The notes beneath the pieces were generated by a model, which was not told where the DNA came from, did not search any database, and worked only from the letters and a program-made list of their open reading frames with translations. DNA of 64,000 nt from a virus: the IMG/VR virus record IMGVR_UViG_3300008111_000005, positions 40,872-104,871 of that record. One strand, written 5' to 3'. Below, piece after piece: positions 4,296 to 56,514 of this stretch (its first letter is position 1; each line of letters starts with the position of its first letter). The position numbers were made by a program, and so were the translations under genes.

Positions 4296-4974
4296 TGGTT
4301 AGCTCTCGTTTAATTTCTTCTATTACATCACGAAGTTTGTGGGCTTCAATGAAGGGTGTATAATCAATATACGTTGGATTTGAAATTTTGTCAACATCTT
4401 CTTGTGTAAAATCAATCCCCAAACGTTCATTTAACTCTGGTAGATATTCCGTAGATGGTTTCTGCATCATTTCGTGGTCAACCATACTAACGTGTAATCC
4501 AGACTTTAATAAATGTGGTTTAATTACATCGTAATAATATAGAATAGTTTCCAAAATATACTTTAATAAACTTCTGTCAAGTGGAATATTTTCGGGTGTT
4601 TCCAATTGCTCAGTTAAAAACTCTACCAGTGCTGCGTGTTCACCATTACCATTTTCCTGTGCATACGACAATAGTAACCAACTTGCAGCTTGTTGCGTGA
4701 TATCCAATCTTTCGGCCAAAACAATTCTATCAAATGCATGCCACGGAAATGTCTGGTAATCTAATATATTTTTATAACTTGTCAATGTGGTACTGGTAAT
4801 CTTAACAGAAAAATCATCCGTGTTCGTCATCATGTCTAATTTTTCTTCCACGGATTTTACAATCGGACCTTCGGAAAACAATTCCGAATAATCTGTTAAA
4901 TTAAACTTTGTAGAGAAAAGTGTTCCCAACATACTTGAACACGTACGTGGGGTCGAAACAATAGCTACTCTCAT
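4228..4974 (-). CDS. sulfotransferase-like protein
   Basis: N-terminal IVSTPRTCSSML (5'-PSB-like loop) and LAERLDITQQAASW (3'-PB-like); start at ATGA overlap 4974. Confidence 0.6.
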   Translation of the reverse strand: MRVAIVSTPRTCSSMLGTLFSTKFNLTDYSELFSEGPIVKSVEEKLDMMTNTDDFSVKITSTTLTSYKNILDYQTFPWHAFDRIVLAERLDITQQAASWLLLSYAQENGNGEHAALVEFLTEQLETPENIPLDRSLLKYILETILYYYDVIKPHLLKSGLHVSMVDHEMMQKPSTEYLPELNERLGIDFTQEDVDKISNPTYIDYTPFIEAHKLRDVIEEIKRELTNATEEETSTDEGNESIENEGTV

Positions 4975-5801: not shown

Positions 5802-6389
5802 TTACTTGATGTCCTGTACCTTATCACAGATTTTATATTTCAACGCTTCCTGCGGAGCTAACCACACATCCTGCGGTGGAAGAAGTCGTTCACGAACAAC
5901 CTTTTCTGCCAATCCAGTACACTTCTTGTAATGATTAATCATACGAATCGTAGTCAACTCAAACTCACGCATCGTTGCGATGAGTTCGTGCTCCTTACCT
6001 ACCTGTCCCCACGACCACTGATGTGAGAGAATACTCGTATTCGGCGTAATGATACGATGTCCCTTCTCACCAGAAATGAATGTTAACAACCCAGCCGATG
6101 CGATACATCCAAGACCAATCGTACGAACAGGGATTGCACTACCTCGCATTACGTCAATAATAGCGAATGCAGCTGACAAGTCACCACCATAACTGGTAAT
6201 CATCAATGTAAGATGGTCATGCTTCTTACTTTTCTGAATGTTTGAATCTAGTATCCACGTAACGACATCTTTTGCTACATTGGTATTAAACTCATCACAC
6301 AAGTAATAAATTCCAGCATCTCGCATAGTTGTTACTGGTGCTGCTGGTGCCGATACAATTGGTGCTACTGCGTTAGTAGTTTTTGACAT
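5802..6389 (-). CDS. ClpP-like protease
   Basis: ITSYGG, IASAG (catalytic Ser), ILSHQ (catalytic His), DVWLAPQEALKY. Confidence 0.85.
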   Translation of the reverse strand: MSKTTNAVAPIVSAPAAPVTTMRDAGIYYLCDEFNTNVAKDVVTWILDSNIQKSKKHDHLTLMITSYGGDLSAAFAIIDVMRGSAIPVRTIGLGCIASAGLLTFISGEKGHRIITPNTSILSHQWSWGQVGKEHELIATMREFELTTIRMINHYKKCTGLAEKVVRERLLPPQDVWLAPQEALKYKICDKVQDIK

Positions 6390-6390
6390 A

Positions 6391-6708
6391 TTACTTCTCT
6401 AAAATGAGTGAGGGCTTGCTCGGAGCCTTTTCCACTTCGGTTGCTGCTTCCTCTTCCATTCCCTTGGGAATTACAGGAAGAAATGACTTATTAATATGAC
6501 CACATGCATTACACGAAAAGGTAGGAATGGGTACAATTGCTTCCTTACCAGTTGGTGAAATAAGTGCAGACATCCGCTTCATCAACATCACTTGTTCAAA
6601 GGTGTAATTACCACAACGTTCACAGGAAACATCGTCTGCCTTTGACAAATCCACATTCAACTGCGGCTGTTGCGGTGGTGGTCCACCAAATCGGTTATTC
6701 TTTGACAT
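6391..6708 (-). CDS. zinc-ribbon hypothetical protein
   Basis: CERCG ... CNACGH. Confidence 0.7.
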   Translation of the reverse strand: MSKNNRFGGPPPQQPQLNVDLSKADDVSCERCGNYTFEQVMLMKRMSALISPTGKEAIVPIPTFSCNACGHINKSFLPVIPKGMEEEAATEVEKAPSKPSLILEK

Positions 6709-6714
6709 AATTCC

Positions 6715-7629
6715 TCAACCATTTAAAATGTTATACAACGCTGCTACAAAATTAATTTCCTTATCTACTACAAAACTATCACGATACTGTCCCTCTGCGA
6801 TTTCTCGGATAGTATGTGGTACTTTTGCCGGTGCGTAATCAGTTACCTTATCAAAGAGTAATCTATACAGTTCAGCAAAATCCTTTACATTACTATCTGC
6901 CACAATCTGTCTTATTTCATTAACCTTATCTTTCAATGGAAGATTACTCATCAAGACATCTAACACCTTCAACTTGTAATCCCCAGCGATTACTTCCTCA
7001 ACGTTGAGTTCCAGTCTACCGCCACTTGTTTGATTTTGCGAAGTATTAATAATCCGGCGAATGTCTGGGTAATATGCGTTAACCAGGGTTGCGATAACAG
7101 ACTTATCAAATCCAACATGTTCCTTCTCCAAAATTTTCATTAAGTGAACTGCCACCTCTTTTTTAGATGGTGGGGTCAACTTGAATACTTGTGCTCTACT
7201 AATCAGAGGATCAATAATACGTTCCACATAATTACAGGTCAAGATGAAACGAGTATTCTTACTGAACACTTCCATCAAGTTACGAAGTGCTGCCTGTGCC
7301 TGTGGGGTAATGTAATCCGCCTCGTCGAGTACGATAATCTTCAAGGGTTTAAAACTCATTGTTGCTGCGAAGTTCTTAATCTTAGTACGAATCGTATCTA
7401 CGGAGTTTTCATCCGATGCATTGATAAACAAGTAATCACAATCAATATTCTTGACCAGAATCTTTGCTGCGGTAGTCTTACCAGTACCAGCTGTACCGCA
7501 GAAGAGTAGATGCGGTACATCTTGCTCTGCGATAAATTGAGTTAATTTGTTCTTTACGTGTTCGTTACCAATGTAATTCTCCAACGTATCAGGCCGGTAG
7601 CGTTCTGCCCAGATTGTATTATCAATCAT
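6715..7629 (-). CDS. clamp-loader large subunit (gp44/RFC-like AAA+)
   Basis: WAERYRP, Walker A GTAGTGKT, INASD, LDEAD, AQAALR. Confidence 0.92.
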   Translation of the reverse strand: MIDNTIWAERYRPDTLENYIGNEHVKNKLTQFIAEQDVPHLLFCGTAGTGKTTAAKILVKNIDCDYLFINASDENSVDTIRTKIKNFAATMSFKPLKIIVLDEADYITPQAQAALRNLMEVFSKNTRFILTCNYVERIIDPLISRAQVFKLTPPSKKEVAVHLMKILEKEHVGFDKSVIATLVNAYYPDIRRIINTSQNQTSGGRLELNVEEVIAGDYKLKVLDVLMSNLPLKDKVNEIRQIVADSNVKDFAELYRLLFDKVTDYAPAKVPHTIREIAEGQYRDSFVVDKEINFVAALYNILNG

Positions 7630-47376: not shown

Positions 47377-48849
47377 TTATACCTTACGTTTAAAGAGTTG
47401 CGCCATATCGTCTTGACGATGGATTAATTTACCTTCCGGTTCCCATTCTTGGTCAAGACCAGTGACCTTCATAATATTATCAATCGAACCATACTGCTGT
47501 GTCCAATCACAGGTCAGATTAATTAACAATAGGTCTGTCTTTTCATAAAGTTGCTTACGAACTTGTTCTGCTACTATCTTTGTTGTTTCCAACAATCGAC
47601 CTGGCATTAGGAGAACCAGACTGTATGCTTTTTCATTCCACGTATGTAAGTCAAATATACTACCCATTGTAAAGATTCCCCAATGGATTGTTGTTGCTGC
47701 CGACATACAACGTTGCTTATCCATTTCCACACCATGCGGAATTAAATCTTGTCTATCTCCCACCACACGACCTAACAAGACACCATTACCACACCCAAGG
47801 TCAAGCACATTTCCACTTGGAATATACTTCATATCTCCAACTGCATCAAGAATAACTTGATGGAAATGATCCATTGCACCCTTGTTACTAAATCCGTTCT
47901 CTTCCCAAACAGAAGTATCTTCCAACGACTTAGCAAAGGATAGAGTCTTAGTAATAGGTTTAATTTTAGTTTTCTTTTGGTTATACGGATATGTAATACC
48001 CGACATACCATCTTCTGGATATGAATGACTGAGCTTTTGTACCGTGTATTTCCACGGTGTCATATCTGTACGTGATGATATCTTATTGATTGGGGTACGA
48101 ATTTCCGCGATGCCGTGCAACGCTGACCATTCCACGGGCCACGAAAGAATTTCATAAATCCAATCAATTTCCTTATTATATCCAAGTGTACGACCAAGTT
48201 CTGCCATTTTCATACCAAGTTCTTCTGTTGCTTTACAATCAAATGAACATGGAAGATGTGAGACTAGTCGAATACCCTGCCACCGCCAAAGAATATTGGA
48301 TTCTGGTGGAGTGTCTGCATTAATATGAATAGTGTGATCGTTGTCGGTTAACGTCAGCTTATCAGCTGCCATTGTCCACGTAGAATCTACATATCCTTGG
48401 TTTACCCAATATTTGTTGAAATGTTCAATACAACATGTAGGGTATCCAAGTAATCTTCCCGCTTCACGGTCACGAATAGATGATGGGGAATTCCATATAC
48501 TGAACCATTCTTCAGCCAATCGTTCTGACTTTGTAAAAACAACTCGTATATTATAATCTCCACCAGCATATGGAATTGTAGTAGAGGAATATTGCCCAGT
48601 AATTCCTTCCTTTGCCAAGGCAACAATTTTTACACCATACTTACCATACTCTTCTTGCAACGACATCAATTCCGATGGACGGATGATATCTAGTGCAGAT
48701 GGTCGAATGTCATGAACCACAGACATACGTTCTATATGTCTCCATGCACTGGAAATTGCCGAAATAATCGGTTCGTATTTATTTTTGTTTTCCATACTCG
48801 TCCACTGCACACGAGTCCAATCTGGTAAAACGTGTTTAATTCTTTGCAT
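47377..48849 (-). CDS. Cys-motif (DUF483-like) domain fused to class I SAM methyltransferase
   Basis: GRLLGYPTCCIEHF, SHLPCSFDC; C-terminal VLDLGCGNG, HGVEMD. Confidence 0.6.
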   Translation of the reverse strand: MQRIKHVLPDWTRVQWTSMENKNKYEPIISAISSAWRHIERMSVVHDIRPSALDIIRPSELMSLQEEYGKYGVKIVALAKEGITGQYSSTTIPYAGGDYNIRVVFTKSERLAEEWFSIWNSPSSIRDREAGRLLGYPTCCIEHFNKYWVNQGYVDSTWTMAADKLTLTDNDHTIHINADTPPESNILWRWQGIRLVSHLPCSFDCKATEELGMKMAELGRTLGYNKEIDWIYEILSWPVEWSALHGIAEIRTPINKISSRTDMTPWKYTVQKLSHSYPEDGMSGITYPYNQKKTKIKPITKTLSFAKSLEDTSVWEENGFSNKGAMDHFHQVILDAVGDMKYIPSGNVLDLGCGNGVLLGRVVGDRQDLIPHGVEMDKQRCMSAATTIHWGIFTMGSIFDLHTWNEKAYSLVLLMPGRLLETTKIVAEQVRKQLYEKTDLLLINLTCDWTQQYGSIDNIMKVTGLDQEWEPEGKLIHRQDDMAQLFKRKV

Positions 48850-48867: not shown

Positions 48868-49224
48868 TTAAATCTTCAGCTTACTTTTTTCTTCTGCAAT
48901 AATCTGTTGCAAAAATGCCTTCCACGAATTTCCAGCAGTAGCCTGTGCTGTGTCGGTATCCGTACTTACTACTCCAAACTTGGCTTCATACGCTTCACGA
49001 TACCGACCAGTTTCATCAACGTGGTCTGCATGTCCGTTTGTCATATCAAACTCTTCACCAACAATTGTTTGTGATGTAGTTACTACTGGTACGGATTCGG
49101 TATCTCGAAATTCTTCTGGAATTTCCTTTAATATTCCCTTTTCCAAAAGTTCTTTTACTACTTCGAACTTTTGAGCGTAAGCTCCCGATGAGTCTACATG
49201 GTCAGCATGTAATCCTTGAATCAT
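48868..49224 (-). CDS. small protein with two HADHVD..G.Y repeats
   Basis: 118 aa, GAGG RBS, directly downstream of the radical SAM gene. Confidence 0.7.
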   Translation of the reverse strand: MIQGLHADHVDSSGAYAQKFEVVKELLEKGILKEIPEEFRDTESVPVVTTSQTIVGEEFDMTNGHADHVDETGRYREAYEAKFGVVSTDTDTAQATAGNSWKAFLQQIIAEEKSKLKI

Positions 49225-49244
49225 TTGTTTATCCTCTACTATTA

Positions 49245-50558
49245 TTAAGGTAAAAATCCATATTGTTCGTTAAACTCTTTTGAATATCGTCCTGTTTCGT
49301 CTGTATGATCGGCGTGTGGTATTTTACCACCGTTTTTCATTACGATTTTTTGTTGTTTGATAAACTTATCAATATCAAACTGTCCTTCCAAATATCGTTT
49401 AATCTGCGCCAATCGTAACTCAACACCTTGACTGTATCCGTACATCAATGCATCTTCGTATTTTTGTCTATCTGGATGTAGTGACAATGGTGTTTCTCCT
49501 TTATGCACCATTAACTTTTCAAATATACCGAATGCCACTTTCCAATTCAAGCAGGTGTCTGTACGATTTCTCCAATCCATATCAATACCTGTACCAGGAC
49601 AATGTGCCTTACAAGTTAAGAAGAAACGACATCCTTGACATCCACCGTGTTCCTGCGGTGTGTGGTATAACGCCATTTGACGTTCAAATCCATCATATTG
49701 GGCTTTAATCCAATTAATACCTTCTTTATTTCCACGACCACAATTTGCTTGGTTTCCTTGTGAATCAATACCTTGCACTGCGTGGGTAGTATATGGGTCA
49801 CACGATAAGAAGGTACATGTTGCATTATTATCTTGTGCCTTTAACATATCTTCTACGTCACGGAAAATATCGAATCGAAATGACCGTTTACCAGGACCAT
49901 TTAATTCATTAATTTCAAACTCCCACATATCCAGTAAGAATTCAATATTTTGTTCTGGTGTTAACGCAAGTGATTCCCCAATTGAACTGTGGTCAATTTC
50001 TAACGGATGGAGGCGAGCGCCATCAACACCCCACGATTGAAGTTCTTTTACCCATGCCTTAAATCGGTCACGGTATTTTGGAAGTCCATTCTTTTTGTGA
50101 ACAGTGATAATTAAACCAAGAGAAATTTTATTAGCTAATAGTTTCTTAATTGCTTCAAATGATTTACGAGTAGCTTCTCTGGTTTTTTCCAATGACCCCG
50201 CCCAACGAGTATCATTCATTTCATCGGGTCCGTCGAGGGACACACCAACGTGAACGTTATACTTCTTGAACATTTCAATGTGGCGGTCGGTGATTAAAAC
50301 ACCATTTGTTTGGATACCATTTGCTTTATAGCGTTCGTATCCCCACTTAAAAATAGTTTCTAAATCGTCAATATCAGTTAATAATGGTTCACCACCAAAT
50401 AGAGTAAAGTTACCACCCTCTTTGGCCAAACCTTCTAACATTTTTTCAACAGAATATGTTTTTTGACGGAAGTTACCCGCGTCACGCATAGGATGTTCGT
50501 AACAATACGGACAACTTAAATTACATACTACTCCAACTGGTTCCAATTCAATCGTCAT
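49245..50558 (-). CDS. radical SAM/SPASM enzyme (peptide-maturase-like)
   Basis: CNLSCPYC, FGGEPL, IQTNG, GVSLDGP; SPASM-type CTFLSC..NC..CQGCRFFLTCKAHCP..C. Confidence 0.9.
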   Translation of the reverse strand: MTIELEPVGVVCNLSCPYCYEHPMRDAGNFRQKTYSVEKMLEGLAKEGGNFTLFGGEPLLTDIDDLETIFKWGYERYKANGIQTNGVLITDRHIEMFKKYNVHVGVSLDGPDEMNDTRWAGSLEKTREATRKSFEAIKKLLANKISLGLIITVHKKNGLPKYRDRFKAWVKELQSWGVDGARLHPLEIDHSSIGESLALTPEQNIEFLLDMWEFEINELNGPGKRSFRFDIFRDVEDMLKAQDNNATCTFLSCDPYTTHAVQGIDSQGNQANCGRGNKEGINWIKAQYDGFERQMALYHTPQEHGGCQGCRFFLTCKAHCPGTGIDMDWRNRTDTCLNWKVAFGIFEKLMVHKGETPLSLHPDRQKYEDALMYGYSQGVELRLAQIKRYLEGQFDIDKFIKQQKIVMKNGGKIPHADHTDETGRYSKEFNEQYGFLP

Positions 50559-50622: not shown

Positions 50623-51393
50623 TTATGGACCAACAAATACTGGTTGGTCACTATGTGGTGTGGTATTATCTGTATGAGCAGCGGGAGTAGTGTTATCGGT
50701 GTGTGCAGCCGGTGTGGTATTATCCGTATGAGCAGCGGGAGTAGTGTTATCGGTGTGCGCAGCCGGTGTGGTATTATCCGTATGTGCTGCTGGAGTCGTA
50801 TTGTCCGTATGTGCTGCATTGATAGTAGTATTTGTGTGTGCCGCGGCAATGTCTGTGTGGCTGGTAGCAATGTCTGTGTGACTCGCTGGTGTGGTATTGT
50901 CCGTATGTGCTGCGTTGGTAGTATTATCCGTGTGTGATGCGTTAATAGTGGTATCAGTATGTGCTGCTGGCGTGGTGTTGTCGGTGTGTGCAATGTTAGT
51001 GTGGGATGTAGCAATATCAGTATGAGATGTTGCTATATTCGTGTGGGATGTTGCGATGTCGGTATGCGCAGCATTCGTAGTGTTGTCTGTATGTGATGCG
51101 TTAATAGTGGTGTTAGCAAACGCAATATTCGTGTGTGAATTTCCAGTGTAATTGTCTGTGTGCGCAGCTGCGATATTAGTATGCGATGCAGCAACATTGG
51201 AATGTGGTGTAGTGCTGTTACTAAACGCAATATTACTGTGTGCAATATCGGAATGTGAAGATATTGTCGCAATATTACTATGCGCAATATCTGTATGTGC
51301 TGACGACGCAGCGGCATTACCGTGTGCGATATTTGTATGTGATCCAGCCACATTGCTATGACCGCCGGGAGAATAACTATCGGAATGTGCCAT
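50623..51393 (-). CDS. His-x-Asp/Asn repeat protein (256 aa)
   Basis: about 31 H-[TSG]-[DN] motifs plus 2 F-x-N motifs; the protein is almost entirely repeat. Confidence 0.85.
   Translation of the reverse strand: MAHSDSYSPGGHSNVAGSHTNIAHGNAAASSAHTDIAHSNIATISSHSDIAHSNIAFSNSTTPHSNVAASHTNIAAAHTDNYTGNSHTNIAFANTTINASHTDNTTNAAHTDIATSHTNIATSHTDIATSHTNIAHTDNTTPAAHTDTTINASHTDNTTNAAHTDNTTPASHTDIATSHTDIAAAHTNTTINAAHTDNTTPAAHTDNTTPAAHTDNTTPAAHTDNTTPAAHTDNTTPAAHTDNTTPHSDQPVFVGP
50657..50812 (-). repeat. 27-bp coding tandem repeat (HTDNTTPAA, about 6 copies)
   Basis: near-identical 27-nt units with mostly synonymous variation. Confidence 0.8.
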
Positions 51394-51410: not shown

Positions 51411-52571
51411 TTATGAGCAGAGTTCGTTGGTACCACCACATACTTGATAATTAGAACACGCTAGGTAATAAAAACAACCCGAACATGTAACCAAATTGAT
51501 ACCATCACATACACTAGTACCATCGGTGCAACAATAATTATTTGTATGAGAGGCATTTGCCGTACTGTCTTGGTGGGATATTGAAGTATTAGTGAATGCA
51601 ATATTATTATGCGCAATATCAGAATGTGAAGATATCGCCGCAATATTACTATGTGCTATATCCGTATGTGCGGAAGAAGCTGCAATGTTACTATGCGCAA
51701 TATTAGTATGTGCCGCAGCGATATTTGAAAAGTTTGTAGTACTATCCGTATGACCTATTGATGTATTCGTATGTGCTGCGTTGGTAGTACTATCCGTGTG
51801 TGCGATATTTGTATGTGAATTTGGTATATAACTGTTTGTATGTGCAGCAGGTATTGTACTATCGGTATGCGGAATTGTGGTATTCGTGTGTGGTATTGTG
51901 GTGTTGGTATGTGGAACTGTGGTATTGACGAACGCAATATTTGTGTGAGCTGCTGGTGTGGTATTGTCCGTATGTGCTGCATTGATAGTAGTATTTGTAT
52001 GTGCTGCGTTGATAGTAGTATCTGTATGTGCTGCTGGTATCGTAGTATTTGTGTGAGGAATAGTGGTATTTGTGTGTGGAGTTGTATTATCTGTATGTGA
52101 TGATGGTGTGGTGTTATCTGTATGTGCAGCAATCGTGGTATTGTCTGTGTGTGCAGCAATTGTTGTATTATCGGTGTGTGCAGCAATCGTGGTATTATCG
52201 GTGTGTGCTGCGTTGATAGTAATATCAGTATGTGCTGCTGGAGTGGTGTTATCGGTGTGTGCCGCAGTTACGTCGGTGTGACCACGAATTTCACTACCTG
52301 TACCAGAAATCCAATGCCAAAAAGTACTTTCAACCCACACAGAACCAGCCTTTGCACCTGCCGCAGCACCTAAGTTTGTATATGCAATTGTACGGTCAAC
52401 CCCTGTAGCGGAGATATAATGGAAATCATTTCCATCTACCCACACCGATCCAGGTTTAGCTCCCGCTGGTGATGTACCGGCGGTACCAGTATAATAATAT
52501 TCATTTCCCGAGCCGTCTATGAAACGAAACGTTTCACCATCAACCCAGATACTACCAGGTGCCTTTGGCAT
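51411..52571 (-). CDS. His-x-Asp/Asn repeat protein with N-terminal GS(I/V)WV repeats and Cys-rich tip (386 aa)
   Basis: three PGS(I/V)WVD-type repeats, about 30 HxD/N plus 3 FxN motifs, 8-Cys C-terminus. Confidence 0.85.
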   Translation of the reverse strand: MPKAPGSIWVDGETFRFIDGSGNEYYYTGTAGTSPAGAKPGSVWVDGNDFHYISATGVDRTIAYTNLGAAAGAKAGSVWVESTFWHWISGTGSEIRGHTDVTAAHTDNTTPAAHTDITINAAHTDNTTIAAHTDNTTIAAHTDNTTIAAHTDNTTPSSHTDNTTPHTNTTIPHTNTTIPAAHTDTTINAAHTNTTINAAHTDNTTPAAHTNIAFVNTTVPHTNTTIPHTNTTIPHTDSTIPAAHTNSYIPNSHTNIAHTDSTTNAAHTNTSIGHTDSTTNFSNIAAAHTNIAHSNIAASSAHTDIAHSNIAAISSHSDIAHNNIAFTNTSISHQDSTANASHTNNYCCTDGTSVCDGINLVTCSGCFYYLACSNYQVCGGTNELCS

Positions 52572-52614: not shown

Positions 52615-53478
52615 TTATACACAAGTAAATGTTCCTAAACAACCAACTGGCCGTGCTGCACATACTACTGCGTAGACACTACTATTGGGATTTGTATAAA
52701 AATTTGACCCAGATGATGGACTACCATCGGCACAAGTTACATATCCTGCGGGACACGATGCATCCACACCACGAGTTCCTTGTGGACCTGTTGGTCCTTG
52801 TACACCAGTAATTCCCTGTACTCCAGCCGACCCCGTGGATGCCGCTGGTGCAGAAATACCTGTAACTCCTACAACACCCGTTGCTCCTTGTGGTCCCGAT
52901 GGTCCTGTTGCACCCGCTGTGGGTAATCCTACAACACCACCTACACCCGTAGCACCCACCACGTTTGTTAATCCCGATGGTCCTGTTTGTCCAATAATTC
53001 CTGTTATACCAAGAATTCCTTGAATACCTGTTGCACCTGTTGGTCCTGTTGCACCCGTTGCGCCTGTTGACCCAGACACTAGTGAACCGATACCTGTAGC
53101 ACCCGTTGGTCCTGTAATACCAATAGACCCCGATGCTCCTGTTGGCCCTGTTGGTCCCGTAGACCCAGTAACACCAGTTGGTCCAATAACTCCTGTTGGC
53201 CCTGTTGGTCCTAGTGGTCCTGTTGGTCCAGTTGGACCTGAGGTAGTTAATCCCGTTACCCCAGATACTCCTGTTGGTCCAGTAGACCCAGACCCAGCTA
53301 TACCTACCAAACCAATTGGACCTGTTGGACCTCTATCACCTATAACTCCTGTTGCACCAGGTCCATATGATGCGGTTAATACATTTACTCCCGCAGCGTA
53401 TGTTGCAGTAAATGCTAAATTACTATATAATGCAACGCTTGCAGTAGTTGGTGTACCAAGTGGAAAAAATGTGGTCAT
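52615..53478 (-). CDS. collagen-like fibre protein with Cys-rich C-terminus
   Basis: G-X-T triplets (GPT, GAT, GVT); five C-terminal Cys. Confidence 0.85.
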
Positions 53479-55037
53479 AGGAATGCGTTACTGTGAGCGG
53501 CAGCGACATTTGAATGTGCTGCGGTGATATTGGAGAAATTGGTGGTATTGTCTGTATGTGCGGCGGTAATATCCGTGTGTGCTGCGGTTATATCCGTGTG
53601 TGCTGCTGCAATGTTACTATGTGCAATATTTGTGTGTGCTGCTGCAACATTTGAAAATGCGATGTTACTGTGTGCGATATCAGTATGTGATGCGTTGGTA
53701 GTATTATCAGAATGTGATCCTGGTGTAGTACTATCAGTAAATGGAATATCGGTATGTGACGACGGTGTAGTACTATTTACGAATGCCGCATCGGTATGCA
53801 CACCTATTATATCACTGTGATCATTAAATGGACTACATGGTGTACCAGATGGACAAGAAGAATATCCGAAATAAAATAAACATCCAGGCCCCGCATCACC
53901 ATCTAAACAATAAACACCAGTCGCTGCATCATCACCATGCCCGATTGTACTGTCCGAATGTGGTTGATCAGTATGTGAGGCCGGCGTGGTACTAGATATT
54001 GCCGCAATATTAGTATGTTCTGTGTTAATAGTAGTATTTGTGTGTGCTGCGTTAATAGTACTGGAACTTCCCGCAATATTTCCGTGTGAAATATTTGAAT
54101 GTGGTGTGGTACTAGTAATTCCAGCAATATTGGTATGTGCTGTATAATTGTTTGTGTGTGGTATTGTGATATTTGTAAAGTTTGTAGTACTGTCGGTGTG
54201 TGCTGCAGTAATATTAGAATGTGGTGTAGTACTATCACTATGTGGGACCGTAATATCGGAATGTGTTTGATTACATGATCCCGTGACGAAAAATGCAGCT
54301 CTTCCCGCAGCACCTTGTGGTCCTGTTGGACCGACTGGCCCAGAAGGACCGGTAATACCTGTAACACCAGCGGAACCGAAGGTATTAGGACCACTAATAC
54401 CCTGTGAACCTGCTGCACCCGTTGCTCCTGTTGGTCCTACTGGTCCTGTTGCTCCAGCACTACCAGATGGACCGATTGGCCCCGTAGAACCAACTGGCCC
54501 CACACCTGTTGGTCCTGTACTACCTTGTGGTCCTGTTGGACCTGTTGAACCTGTTGGTCCAGTTGCTCCAGCAACACCCGCTACACCACCAAATATACCA
54601 ACACTACCTGTTGGACCTGTTGCACCAATTGCCCCTGTTGGACCTGTTATACCTCGACTACCTGTTGGTCCCGTAACACCGATTACACCAGTGCTACCAG
54701 TTGGACCTGTTGGACCCGTGGGGCCTGTAGATCCTGTGATGCCACTTGGTCCAGTTGGACCTGTTGACCCAGATGTTTGTGGTCCAGTTGATCCTGTGGG
54801 TCCAGTTATACCGATAGAGCCGGACACGCCAGTTGGACCTGTTGGACCTGTTGGCCCCGTTGCTCCTGTTGGTCCTAGTGGTCCTGATGGTCCTGTAAAT
54901 CCACCTATAGCGAACGATGCAGTAGCATATCCAGACCCACTATTTACCGCAACTGACGCTGTAAACGTCAGTACACTTGCAGATAATGCGAATGAACTAG
55001 TAGTTGGTGTTCCGTATGGGAAAAACTTAAACGTCAT
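53475..55037 (-). CDS. collagen-like protein fused to His-x-Asp/Asn repeats
   Basis: about 200 aa of G-X-Y, then about 26 HxD/N plus several FxD/N motifs with a 4-Cys insert. Confidence 0.85.
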
Positions 55038-55815: not shown

Positions 55816-56514
55816 TTAAGCTGGTTGTTTTTGCGGTGTTACGGCGTGCCACTTTCCAATTGGACATGATGCGGATGCCAATTGTGTTTTTGTTTTCATA
55901 AAACATCCACACTTTTCACAACGGAAACTATCCGTTTTCAAAAATTCACAACCCTGACACATTGAAAATCGTTGAAATGCTGCATCCGCGTCAACCAACA
56001 CAGGTAATCCCGCTGCTGCGTTCTTTCCCGTATGCCACATTTCCTTTGCAAAATTACGTGCTTGTTGGAACAATGAAGGAAATTGTGTGGTATCTTCGGT
56101 TTTTATCATTTGTTCCGTTTCTTGATATTGCGTATGCATTGTTTCGTTATGTTCATATGCAGCATCTACATATGACCGACCTTCCATCATTTTCAATGCG
56201 GTGACGATATCCGTTGCCACACTCATTGCATTCATACCATGACGGAAAAATAACGGGGTATAATTTTTAGGGGCAAAGTAATATACCGCTTGTGTTAGTG
56301 GTCGAGGAAATACCGGCGGTTCTTCTCTATAACAAATAATATGTAAATGTACAGGATTGAATTGATTCTGTACTTGTGCTTCAAAATCAGTTAGAAACTT
56401 TCCTTTGAAATTTTCACATCCTTCTGCAAGAACAACTGCTAATACTGGATGTTGTGCGTTGTCAATTAAATCTTTTAAATCGTGAAATAATTCTACACTC
56501 ATAAATAACCTCAA
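55816..56514 (-). CDS. protein with C-terminal Cys-rich DUF6171-like domain
   Basis: RFSMCQGC..RCEKCGCFMKTKT.LASASCPIGKW. Confidence 0.65.
   Translation of the reverse strand: MRLFMSVELFHDLKDLIDNAQHPVLAVVLAEGCENFKGKFLTDFEAQVQNQFNPVHLHIICYREEPPVFPRPLTQAVYYFAPKNYTPLFFRHGMNAMSVATDIVTALKMMEGRSYVDAAYEHNETMHTQYQETEQMIKTEDTTQFPSLFQQARNFAKEMWHTGKNAAAGLPVLVDADAAFQRFSMCQGCEFLKTDSFRCEKCGCFMKTKTQLASASCPIGKWHAVTPQKQPA

What the first reader, a model, noticed from the sequence alone, without database searches (positions are those of the whole stretch)
48868..49320. The radical SAM enzyme carries a substrate-like tail that is duplicated in the next small gene
Seen: the rSAM ends in HADHTDETGRYSKEFNEQYG. 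The adjacent 118-aa ORF has HADHVDSSGAYAQKF and HADHVDETGRYREAYEAKFG. Each is a tandem H-x-D-H-x-D. Inference: this could be self-modification, an auto-inhibitory pseudo-substrate, or a docking module shared with an accessory protein or true precursor. It independently links the enzyme to the HxD motif.
Basis: partly seen in the sequence, partly recalled or inferred. Interest (0 to 1): 0.75.

Follow-up and report, generated by a model that had tools for sequence, protein, structure and literature searches.

The report
Radical SAM enzyme carrying its substrate motif
A phage enzyme that probably cross-links His-x-Asp triplets in fibre proteins ends in two of those triplets itself, and a small neighbouring protein repeats the same piece twice; this tail recurs across the enzyme family and offers an easy way to test chemistry that no one has yet shown.

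Summary
The 437-aa radical SAM/SPASM enzyme (49245-50558, minus strand) ends in HADHTD followed by a helix with an aromatic stripe. The next gene (48868-49224, 118 aa) carries the same roughly 20-residue module twice.

- The feature is conserved, not chance. 76 of 103 close homologues, and 67 of 114 unfused representatives in a wider survey, have His-x-Asp tails with 1 to 24 triplets.
- The tails follow a strict pattern: 81% of tail His have Asp at +2 and 0% at +1. There are 304 triplets against 42 expected from shuffling.
- 63 of the 76 tailed enzymes contain a tandem H[G/A]DH[T/Y/W]D.
- The enzymes sit beside His-x-Asp-repeat proteins and a DUF483 partner in several phage groups, including Thermus phages, and in bacteria.
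- The small gene is real (dN/dS 0.12-0.28; 97 protein clusters, 90 with both motifs). It is predicted to be disordered and occurs only in this clade.
- About a quarter of close homologues lack the tail, so it is an accessory.

My best reading (about 0.45) is that the tail is a tethered copy of the enzyme's own substrate motif and the small protein a free copy, and that the enzyme's His-x-Asp site binds both, probably modifying them. Array-to-array docking, autoinhibition and metal binding remain open. No chemistry has been tested.

The parts
49245..50558 (-). Radical SAM/SPASM enzyme, 437 aa. It has CxxxCxxC at C12/C16/C19, eight invariant SPASM-region Cys, no N-terminal RRE, and an extra helical region after the SPASM domain (residues 336-408).
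   Evidence: Pfam PF04055 at 60 bits (cut-off 29.5), residues 8-153. Invariant Cys are listed. AF2 gives pLDDT 88. The Foldseek top hits are anSMEcpe 4k37 and the triceptide synthase ChlB 9gm3.
49248..49319 (-). C-terminal tail of the enzyme (residues 414-437): P-HADHTD-ETG, then a helix with an aromatic stripe (Y..EF..QYGF).
   Evidence: It is invariant in the close clade while the preceding linker varies. AF2 pLDDT is about 59 over the triplets and 77 over helix 424-433.
49299..49316 (-). Tandem His-x-Asp unit HADHTD (residues 415-420). It is the local form of the family-wide H[G/A]DH[T/Y/W]D.
   Evidence: 63 of 76 tailed homologues carry such a tandem: HGDHTD 28, HADHTD 20, HGDHYD 9, HGDHWD 9.
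48868..49224 (-). 118-aa gene encoding a disordered protein with two HADHVD-plus-helix modules and a conserved C-terminal helix.
   Evidence: It lies directly after the rSAM gene in all close relatives examined, L005-L016. It forms 97 protein clusters, 90 of them with both motifs. dN/dS is 0.12-0.28, and AGAGGA lies upstream of the ATG. AF2 gives pLDDT 63 and pTM 0.30, with helices at 15-28, 74-83 and 93-115.
49192..49209 (-). Module 1 tandem unit HADHVD (residues 6-11), followed by G-A-Y...F and helix 15-28.
   Evidence: L5 H6 A7 D8 H9 D11 G14 Y16 are invariant in 53 aligned homologues.
49015..49032 (-). Module 2 tandem unit HADHVD (residues 65-70), followed by ETGRY...Y...FG and helix 74-83. 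This is the copy closest to the enzyme tail.
   Evidence: H65 A66 D67 H68 D70 T72 G73 Y75 G84 are at least 90% conserved. BLASTP against the tail gives E 8e-7.
48880..48948 (-). C-terminal helix of the small protein (residues 93-115; W-K-x-F-L...I..EEK.KL). It is conserved and has no counterpart in the enzyme.
   Evidence: W101 K102 F104 L105 I109 E112 are invariant. AF2 predicts helix 93-115.
47377..48849 (-). Partner protein of 490 aa: a DUF483-like domain (LGYPTCC motif) fused to a class I methyltransferase.
   Evidence: Pfam PF04467 at 25.7 bits (cut-off 25), plus weaker methyltransferase hits. DUF483 proteins accompany the rSAM in Thermus phages and bacteria and are fused to it in 21 of 135 representatives.
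50623..51393 (-). 256-aa H-x-[D/N] repeat protein, a presumed substrate.
   Evidence: All 31 His are in H-x-D/N. The middle residue is T or S, triplet spacing is 5/7/9, and there are no tandems.
51411..52571 (-). 386-aa protein with three N-terminal PGSxWV-type repeats, an H-x-[D/N] array and a Cys-rich end. It is a presumed substrate.
   Evidence: 30 of 32 His are in H-x-D/N. The same N-terminal repeats occur in Cumys_13 and in the 195-219-aa proteins of L018-L024.
53475..55037 (-). 520-aa collagen-like fibre protein with H-x-[D/N] arrays, a presumed substrate.
   Evidence: Pfam Collagen, E 1e-22. All 26 His are in H-x-D/N.

Best explanation
The enzyme belongs to a distinct clade of radical SAM/SPASM protein maturases. 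Their partners are a DUF483 protein and proteins built from His-x-Asp(Asn) triplets, which in phages are mostly fibre or baseplate proteins.

The C-terminal HADHTD is a copy of the enzyme's own target motif tethered to the enzyme. In this clade it is cut down to one tandem unit plus a docking helix with an aromatic stripe. The 118-aa gene encodes a free, disordered protein carrying two more copies of that module.

I infer that both are bound by the same His-x-Asp-recognising site that handles the fibre arrays, the tail in cis or within an oligomer and the small protein in trans. They are most likely modified there, by inference through a His-to-Asp beta-carbon ring of the triceptide type. They would thus be built-in and auxiliary substrates, and could also hold the active site occupied when no fibre substrate is present.

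Shown: the motif, its conservation and pattern, its link to HxD-repeat neighbours, the reality of the small gene, and its predicted disorder. Inferred: binding at the active site, modification, and the chemistry.
For: - Tails are a family trait. 76 of 103 homologues have HxD after the core. In a library-wide profile search, 67 of 114 unfused representatives have 1-24 triplets.
- The pattern is strict. 81% of 375 tail His have Asp at +2, 0% at +1 and 2% at +3. There are 304 triplets against a shuffled mean of 42 and a maximum of 61. Every His of the co-encoded arrays tested from other loci has Asp at +2, bar one.
- Enzymes with and without tails sit next to HxD-repeat proteins. Examples are Cumys and phiMa (54 triplets), phiLo_135-137 (55, 101 and 72), L018 and L020-L024, and bacterial loci L027, L028, L030, L031, L033, L034, L035 and L044.
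- Tail size runs continuously from a single triplet to substrate-sized arrays (24 triplets in the 253-residue extension of P0229), as expected for fused substrate.
- The enzyme has no RRE domain and starts at the cluster motif. Its fold is nearest to anSME and to the triceptide synthase ChlB. His-first triceptide rings (HTK, HAA, HNR) are established chemistry (PMC11499958).
- The small protein has the shape of a precursor or adaptor. It is adjacent, small and disordered, with conserved motifs and variable in-frame linkers, and it is under purifying selection.
Against: - No mass or activity data exist for any member of the family.
- AF2 does not confidently place the triplets (pLDDT about 59), and I could not inspect coordinates or run a complex prediction.
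- Only about six residues separate the last core helix from HADHTD, so reaching the active site in cis may be impossible.
- The tandem H[G/A]DH[T/Y/W]D is conserved even where the local substrates never use tandems or Ala/Gly in the middle position. This hints at a function of its own.
- 27 of 103 close homologues, and nearly all DUF483 fusions, lack the tail yet keep HxD neighbours. It is therefore not needed for catalysis.
Confidence: 0.45

Rival explanations
1. Array-to-array docking. His-x-Asp stretches associate with each other, by strand pairing or through metal ions bridging His and Asp. The enzyme's tail would act as a surrogate strand that recruits the enzyme to unassembled fibre arrays, taking the place of the missing leader/RRE recognition. 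The small protein would be a two-headed adaptor or a competitor.
For: The enzyme has no RRE and the substrates have no leader. Substrates are probably trimeric fibres, since one has a collagen-like shaft. The variable tail length is compatible with avidity. In rSAM-DUF483 fusions the tail is almost always absent, as if another recruiting element replaces it.
Against: There is no evidence that HxD arrays self-associate. Lineages without tails manage without this device. It does not explain why the tandem unit is so uniform.
Confidence: 0.2
2. Metal-binding appendage. H-x-D-H-x-D chelates Fe(II), Zn or Ni. This would feed or protect the three Fe-S clusters, or mirror a metal-binding role of the fibre arrays, as HxH motifs bind iron in phage tail fibres. 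The tail would not enter the active site.
For: His and Asp are classic metal ligands. HxH iron sites in tail fibres are documented (PMC11705849 and PMC6116203, found; T4 gp37 from my own knowledge). The tandem unit is conserved regardless of the local substrate pattern.
Against: The fixed i/i+2 spacing with 0% His-Asp neighbours is the pattern of the substrate arrays, not that of generic His-rich metal tails. In this phage's arrays Asn replaces Asp in 37 of 87 triplets, and Phe-x-Asn fills some slots in register (12 F-x-D/N triplets in the three proteins), which argues against simple chelation there. All eight SPASM Cys are invariant, so no open cluster site needs a His or Asp ligand.
Confidence: 0.15
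3. Auto-inhibitory pseudo-substrate. The tail occupies the site without being turned over and is displaced by fibre arrays. The small protein tunes this as a trans-acting inhibitor or timer.
For: The tail has the motif but in a context (tandem, Ala in the middle) that the phage's real substrates never use. The docking helix survives in sister sequences P0030 and P0054 that lost the triplets. This suggests an anchored module.
Against: Tails of 10-24 triplets are excessive for a plug. A peptide with a true H-T-D triplet sitting in the site should react.
Confidence: 0.1
4. No dedicated function. The tails would be slippage-prone low-complexity remnants of repeated fusion with substrate genes, and the small ORF a decaying fragment.
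For: Copy number is highly variable, and loss has occurred in at least six places on the tree.
Against: The triplet pattern is maintained far above shuffled expectation. HADHxD is invariant across lineages whose synonymous sites are saturated, and dN/dS of the small gene is 0.12-0.28.
Confidence: 0.05

Closest known systems
Phage 'rSAM module' of Thermus phages Cumys and phiMa (Viruses 2024, PMC11437467)
   Same: It has an orthologous rSAM (46% identity over 97% of the query), a DUF483 partner and a third gene upstream. Those enzymes also end in HxD triplets (HGD, HGD, HGD, HWD), and the third gene has 54 triplets.
   Different: The paper proposes a DNA-modification role and does not mention histidine or HxD. 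Thermus phages have no 118-aa gene. Their DUF483 protein lacks the methyltransferase domain, and their tails are runs of several triplets rather than one tandem unit plus a helix.
Triceptide (three-residue cyclophane) synthases: ChlB, YhhB, HaaB, HtkB, XyeB, GrrM
   Same: They are rSAM/SPASM enzymes acting on aromatic-x-X triplets. His-first rings on HTK, HAA and HNR are proven. ChlB is among the best structural matches, and YhhB, AmcB and GrrM are among the best HMM matches.
   Different: All HMM scores lie far below the family cut-offs (for example YhhB 68 against 445). The substrates here are whole proteins with tens of triplets and no leader. Asp/Asn as the third residue of a His ring does not appear in PMC11499958, and three full-text searches found no His-x-Asp system. 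I know of no triceptide synthase that carries its motif on its own tail.
Borosin alpha-N-methyltransferases (OphMA type), which carry their core peptide at the C-terminus
   Same: The enzyme and its substrate motif lie on one polypeptide, and split versions with a separate small precursor also exist. I take this from my own knowledge; one search listed the papers (PMC8429565, bioRxiv 10.1101/2021.12.24.474128) but I did not read them.
   Different: The enzyme class (methyltransferase) and chemistry are unrelated. Self-modification is proven there and untested here. Here the main substrates are separate large proteins.
HXS anti-phage system (HxsA His-x-Ser repeats, rSAM HxsB/HxsC, small HxsD; PMC13128918)
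   Same: A His-x-X repeat protein is matured by rSAM enzymes, and a small accessory protein binds one of them.
   Different: The HxsB model scores 33.8 bits against a cut-off of 370, and there is no HxsA match. That is a bacterial defence system with a periplasmic effector. This one is phage-borne and acts on structural proteins.
Anaerobic sulfatase-maturing enzyme (anSME)
   Same: It is the best structural and HMM match, modifies whole proteins and has no RRE.
   Different: It scores 76 bits against a cut-off of 349. There is no sulfatase or C/S-x-P-x-R motif here. The middle Ser/Thr is not conserved across the family, where it is mostly Gly or Ala.

Membership tests
Radical SAM / SPASM protein-modifying enzymes | CxxxCxxC cluster motif and a radical SAM domain above the Pfam threshold | tested here: met
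   C12/C16/C19; PF04055 at 60 bits against 29.5.
Radical SAM / SPASM protein-modifying enzymes | C-terminal Cys set for two auxiliary Fe-S clusters, and an anSME-like fold | tested here: met
   C248, C253, C273, C307, C310, C316, C320 and C336 are invariant in 103 sequences. Foldseek to 4k37 gives E 1e-13. No Pfam SPASM hit was reported.
Triceptide synthases (XyeB, YhhB, GrrM, FxsB, AmcB) | Score above the curated NCBIfam cut-off | tested here: not met
   YhhB 68/445, AmcB 64/425, GrrM 55/310, FxsB 50/370, XyeB 39/450.
Triceptide synthases (XyeB, YhhB, GrrM, FxsB, AmcB) | Substrate carries aromatic-x-X triplets encoded next to the enzyme | tested here: met
   87 of 89 His in three adjacent proteins are H-x-D/N. 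The tail and the small protein carry H-x-D.
Triceptide synthases (XyeB, YhhB, GrrM, FxsB, AmcB) | Ring carbon to beta-carbon cross-link (-2 Da per triplet) | not testable with these tools
   Needs mass spectrometry and NMR.
Phage rSAM module (Cumys/phiMa) | Orthologous rSAM plus a DUF483 protein plus a third conserved gene | tested here: met
   46-47% identity. The DUF483 motif GYPxCC is present in both. The third gene is the HxD array protein, with the same N-terminal repeats.
HXS defence system | HxsB/HxsC-type rSAM and a HxsA His-x-Ser protein | tested here: not met
   TIGR03978 scores 33.8 bits against 370. TIGR03979 has no match.
Anaerobic sulfatase maturase | Score above the TIGR03942 cut-off | tested here: not met
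   76 bits against 349.
Self-modifying enzyme-substrate fusions (borosin type) | The enzyme's own C-terminal peptide is modified by the enzyme | not testable with these tools
   Only the architecture is shown. The enzyme class differs.

The most novel reading that the evidence does not exclude
This rSAM family would be the first radical SAM maturase that routinely carries its own substrate. The tail (and, in this clade, a free two-module mini-substrate) would be cross-linked by the enzyme itself. The modified tandem His-x-Asp unit would then do a job of its own, for example as a metal-binding or gating element that controls when the phage's fibre proteins are processed. The enzyme expressed alone would then report an undescribed His-Asp protein cross-link.
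Probability: 0.3. Interest if true: 0.75.

Novelty: new variant of a known kind. Interest (0 to 1): 0.6.

Why it matters
The His-x-Asp array, rSAM and DUF483 trio is widespread in phages and bacteria. It has no known chemistry, and the only paper I found on it guesses at DNA modification. Three points follow.

- Independent evidence for the target. The enzyme's own tail, which obeys the same triplet pattern in most of the family, is evidence from within the enzyme sequence that the triplet is what this enzyme recognises.
- An easier experiment. The real substrates are long, repetitive, probably trimeric fibre proteins that are hard to express and analyse. The enzyme's tail and the soluble 118-aa protein are small, unique-sequence targets for mass spectrometry.
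- A possible new recognition principle. If the tail is modified or acts as a gate, this would be a new way for a leaderless, RRE-less RiPP-type enzyme to recognise or regulate its substrate. It would parallel the borosins in an unrelated enzyme class.

Tried and rejected
- **The tail as the only substrate in phiLo.** No array gene lies next to its rSAM. I rejected this after a six-frame scan of the whole genome found three array proteins 4-10 kb away, phiLo_135-137, with 55, 101 and 72 triplets.
- **A split tail in tail-less lineages.** No separate small ORF with a tandem unit exists in L017-L044 apart from the array proteins themselves.
- **Read-through fusion of the enzyme and the small ORF.** Rejected: four in-frame stops follow the rSAM.
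- **Recent DNA duplication.** Rejected: the copies are 58-60% identical in nucleotides.
- **The tail as a ligand of an open auxiliary-cluster site.** Disfavoured: all eight Cys are invariant.
- **Relatives of the small protein.** None in Pfam, NCBIfam or PHROGs, by PDB profile search or in the ESM Atlas.
- **Membership in the HXS system, anSME or a named triceptide family.** Not met.
- **AF2 of the full enzyme.** It did not settle where the tail sits, because only pLDDT and secondary structure are returned. No complex prediction was possible.
Full report
**What is there**

The window is part of a 104,871-base virus record. On the minus strand, between large structural genes and an SNF2 helicase followed by a baseplate-hub-like gene, lies one co-oriented gene string:
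- a collagen-like protein (243 aa);
- a collagen-like protein with H-x-D/N arrays (520 aa);
- a collagen-like protein (287 aa);
- two array proteins (386 and 256 aa);
- a radical SAM/SPASM enzyme (437 aa, 49245-50558);
- a 118-aa ORF (48868-49224);
- a DUF483-like/methyltransferase fusion (490 aa).

The enzyme ends in PHADHTDETGRYSKEFNEQYGFLP. The 118-aa protein has HADHVDSSGAYAQKF at residues 6-20 and HADHVDETGRYREAYEAKFG at residues 65-84.

**More than chance**

- BLASTP aligns the tail to the two modules with E 8e-7 and 3e-4.
- In six frames of the whole record, H-x-D-H-x-D occurs in an open frame only at these three sites.
- The copies are 58-60% identical in DNA, so the protein-level similarity is maintained rather than recent.

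**The small gene is real**

- It follows the rSAM gene directly in every close relative fetched (L005-L016, 75-100% rSAM identity).
- It has 97 protein clusters in the large database. 90 of them have both HADHxD units; the rest are truncations, a shorter one-module form (P0213-P0215), one with His to Asn in the first unit (P0173) and one unrelated chimera (P0217).
- dN/dS against seven relatives is 0.12-0.28 with saturated synonymous sites. An AGAGGA box precedes the ATG, and four in-frame stops separate it from the enzyme.
- Its linkers vary by in-frame insertions and deletions, while four blocks stay fixed: module 1, an L..G.L.E.PEEFR block, module 2 and a C-terminal helix.
- AF2 with 53 homologues gives pLDDT 63 and pTM 0.30. 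It predicts three helices (15-28, 74-83, 93-115) and disordered linkers. Each HADHxD is an extended stretch followed by a helix.
- The enzyme's tail has the same shape: triplets at pLDDT about 59, then helix 424-433 at pLDDT 77.
- In all three copies the helix carries an aromatic stripe (Y, then F/Y/W four residues on, then F/Y or, in module 1, Val four further on).
- Sister enzymes P0030 and P0054 have lost the triplets but keep a similar helix.
- The small protein has no relative in Pfam, NCBIfam, PHROGs, PDB or the ESM Atlas.

**The tail is a family trait**

This is the main new result.
- The Thermus phage orthologues (46-47% identity) end in their own HxD runs: four triplets in Cumys and phiMa, and nine in the last 55 residues of phiLo.
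- Of 103 full-length homologues, 27 have the HADHxD type, which forms almost a single clade. 45 have two or more triplets, 4 have one and 27 have none. The tail-less forms are scattered, with at least six changes forced by well-supported branches.
- In a profile search of 1.84 billion representatives, 135 of the best 150 could be assessed. 21 are rSAM-DUF483 fusions, and only one of these has triplets. Of the 114 unfused proteins, 67 have triplets.
- Triplet number in those 67 runs continuously from 1 to 24. P0229 has 24 in a 253-residue extension, and P0255 has 18 followed by a hydrophobic segment.
- The tails follow a strict pattern. Of 375 tail His, 81% have Asp at +2, 0% at +1 and 2% at +3. 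There are 304 triplets against a shuffled mean of 42 and a maximum of 61. In the enzyme cores only 3% of His have Asp at +2.
- 63 of 76 tailed enzymes contain a tandem unit, nearly always H[G/A]DH[T/Y/W]D. The distant P0033 even repeats HGDHTDET, close to the HADHTDET seen here.

**What the enzymes sit next to**

Enzymes with and without tails are encoded beside His-x-Asp array proteins and DUF483 proteins:
- Cumys_13 and phiMa_29, with 54 and 53 triplets and the same PGSxW-type N-terminal repeats as the window's 386-aa protein;
- phiLo_135-137, with 55, 101 and 72 triplets, placed just after the baseplate wedge genes;
- a third phage group (six of L017-L024), with a 195-219-aa array protein encoded directly after a large gene that I take to be the long tail fibre (full length in L020 and L023) and a tail-less enzyme;
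- bacterial loci from Paenibacillus, Acidobacteria, Chloroflexota and others, some with signal-like or membrane N-termini.

In this window 87 of 89 His in the three array proteins are H-x-D/N. The middle residue is Thr or Ser, triplet spacing is 5, 7 or 9, and there is never a tandem. Phe-x-Asn fills some slots in register.

The tail therefore shares the triplet with the local substrates, but not the tandem arrangement or the Ala.

**What kind of enzyme**

- The radical SAM domain starts at residue 8, so there is no RRE.
- Eight Cys after the core are invariant.
- The AF2 model (pLDDT 88) matches anSMEcpe and the triceptide synthase ChlB best, then CteB.
- The best HMMs are anSME and the cyclophane-forming maturases, all far below their cut-offs. 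The HxsB model scores 33.8 against 370, and HxsA is absent.
- His-first three-residue rings on HTK, HAA and HNR are established (PMC11499958).

A His-to-Asp/Asn beta-carbon ring is therefore a reasonable inference for the arrays, but it is untested.

The only paper I found on this module (PMC11437467) notes the three-gene unit in Cumys and phiMa and suggests DNA modification. It mentions neither histidine nor HxD.

**How the tail and small protein most likely work**

Three facts point to the tail being a tethered copy of the substrate motif, and the small protein a free copy, both engaging the same site as the fibre arrays:
- the triplet pattern is shared by tails and substrates;
- tail size runs up to substrate-sized arrays;
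- the small protein looks like a precursor or adaptor.

I rate this at about 0.45, with actual modification of the tail at about 0.3.

Several facts argue for caution:
- the tandem unit is uniform whatever the local substrate pattern;
- the linker before HADHTD is short;
- AF2 confidence over the triplets is low;
- the tail has been lost repeatedly.

The rivals are array-to-array docking that replaces leader recognition (0.2), metal binding (0.15), pure autoinhibition (0.1) and neutral remnants (0.05). HxH iron sites in tail fibres are a precedent for metal binding (PMC11705849 and PMC6116203). The strict triplet spacing, the Asn and Phe replacements in the arrays and the fully ligated clusters argue against it. 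The conservation data contradict the neutral reading.

**Comparison and novelty**

- The overall trio has been met by this scan several times on other DNA.
- The nearest architectural analogy is the borosin methyltransferases, which carry their core peptide. That enzyme class is unrelated.
- The feature is a new variant of a known kind: a RiPP-type rSAM maturase that carries its target motif, plus a clade-specific mini-protein with two more copies.

**Limits**

- The tree is the quick version.
- My classification of DUF483 fusions rests on sequence hallmarks.

Noticed in passing
window 50623-50655 (end of the 256-aa protein); L002 about 6960-6992; L020 about 4520-4558: Array proteins from unrelated phage groups end in the same short motif after the last triplet: HSDQPVFVGP here, HADQPVRG in Cumys and HSDQPEFVGNV in L020. 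It may be a conserved C-terminal signal or attachment element.
   Followed up: no
window 52290-52571 (N-terminus of the 386-aa protein); L002:5961-6250; L020:3959-4100; L035:5614-5800: Three tandem repeats of about 25 residues, of the form PGS-x-W-V-x-G...Y/F-I-D..G, form the N-terminus of array proteins in this phage, in Thermus phages, in a third phage group and in a Bacillota genome. This is probably the domain that attaches the array to the virion.
   Followed up: partly
P0120, P0219-P0228 and others; L030:7001-9061; L044:7033-9723: Many family members are rSAM-DUF483 fusions (21 of 135 representatives), and these almost never have an HxD tail. The C-terminal position is filled either by DUF483 or by triplets.
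   Followed up: partly
L031:9784-10206; L033:6207-6878; L034:6106-6558: Bacterial His-x-Asp array proteins next to the rSAM carry Tat-like (RRDLLRAG...) or membrane-anchor N-termini. In bacteria the arrays therefore appear to be exported.
   Followed up: no
P0255 (567 aa): This is an rSAM with 18 triplets followed by a C-terminal hydrophobic segment that looks membrane-spanning. The array would link the enzyme to a membrane anchor.
   Followed up: no
window 55816-56514: A 232-aa protein with a Cys-rich C-terminus (weak DUF6171 hit; phrog_13558, E 3e-15) heads the operon. It is conserved at the same place in relatives L006, L009, L010 and L011.
   Followed up: no
L025:8001-12857: A large phage contig (156 kb) carries two paralogous rSAMs (383 and 391 aa, tail-less) flanking two DUF483-like proteins. 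No His-x-Asp protein lies in the 17 kb fetched. It may be a variant with a different substrate.
   Followed up: no
L001 (phiLo) 5815-6944: In phiLo, IS605-type transposase genes sit directly upstream of the rSAM, between it and an unrelated gene block. The array genes lie downstream of the partner genes, on the opposite strand.
   Followed up: partly
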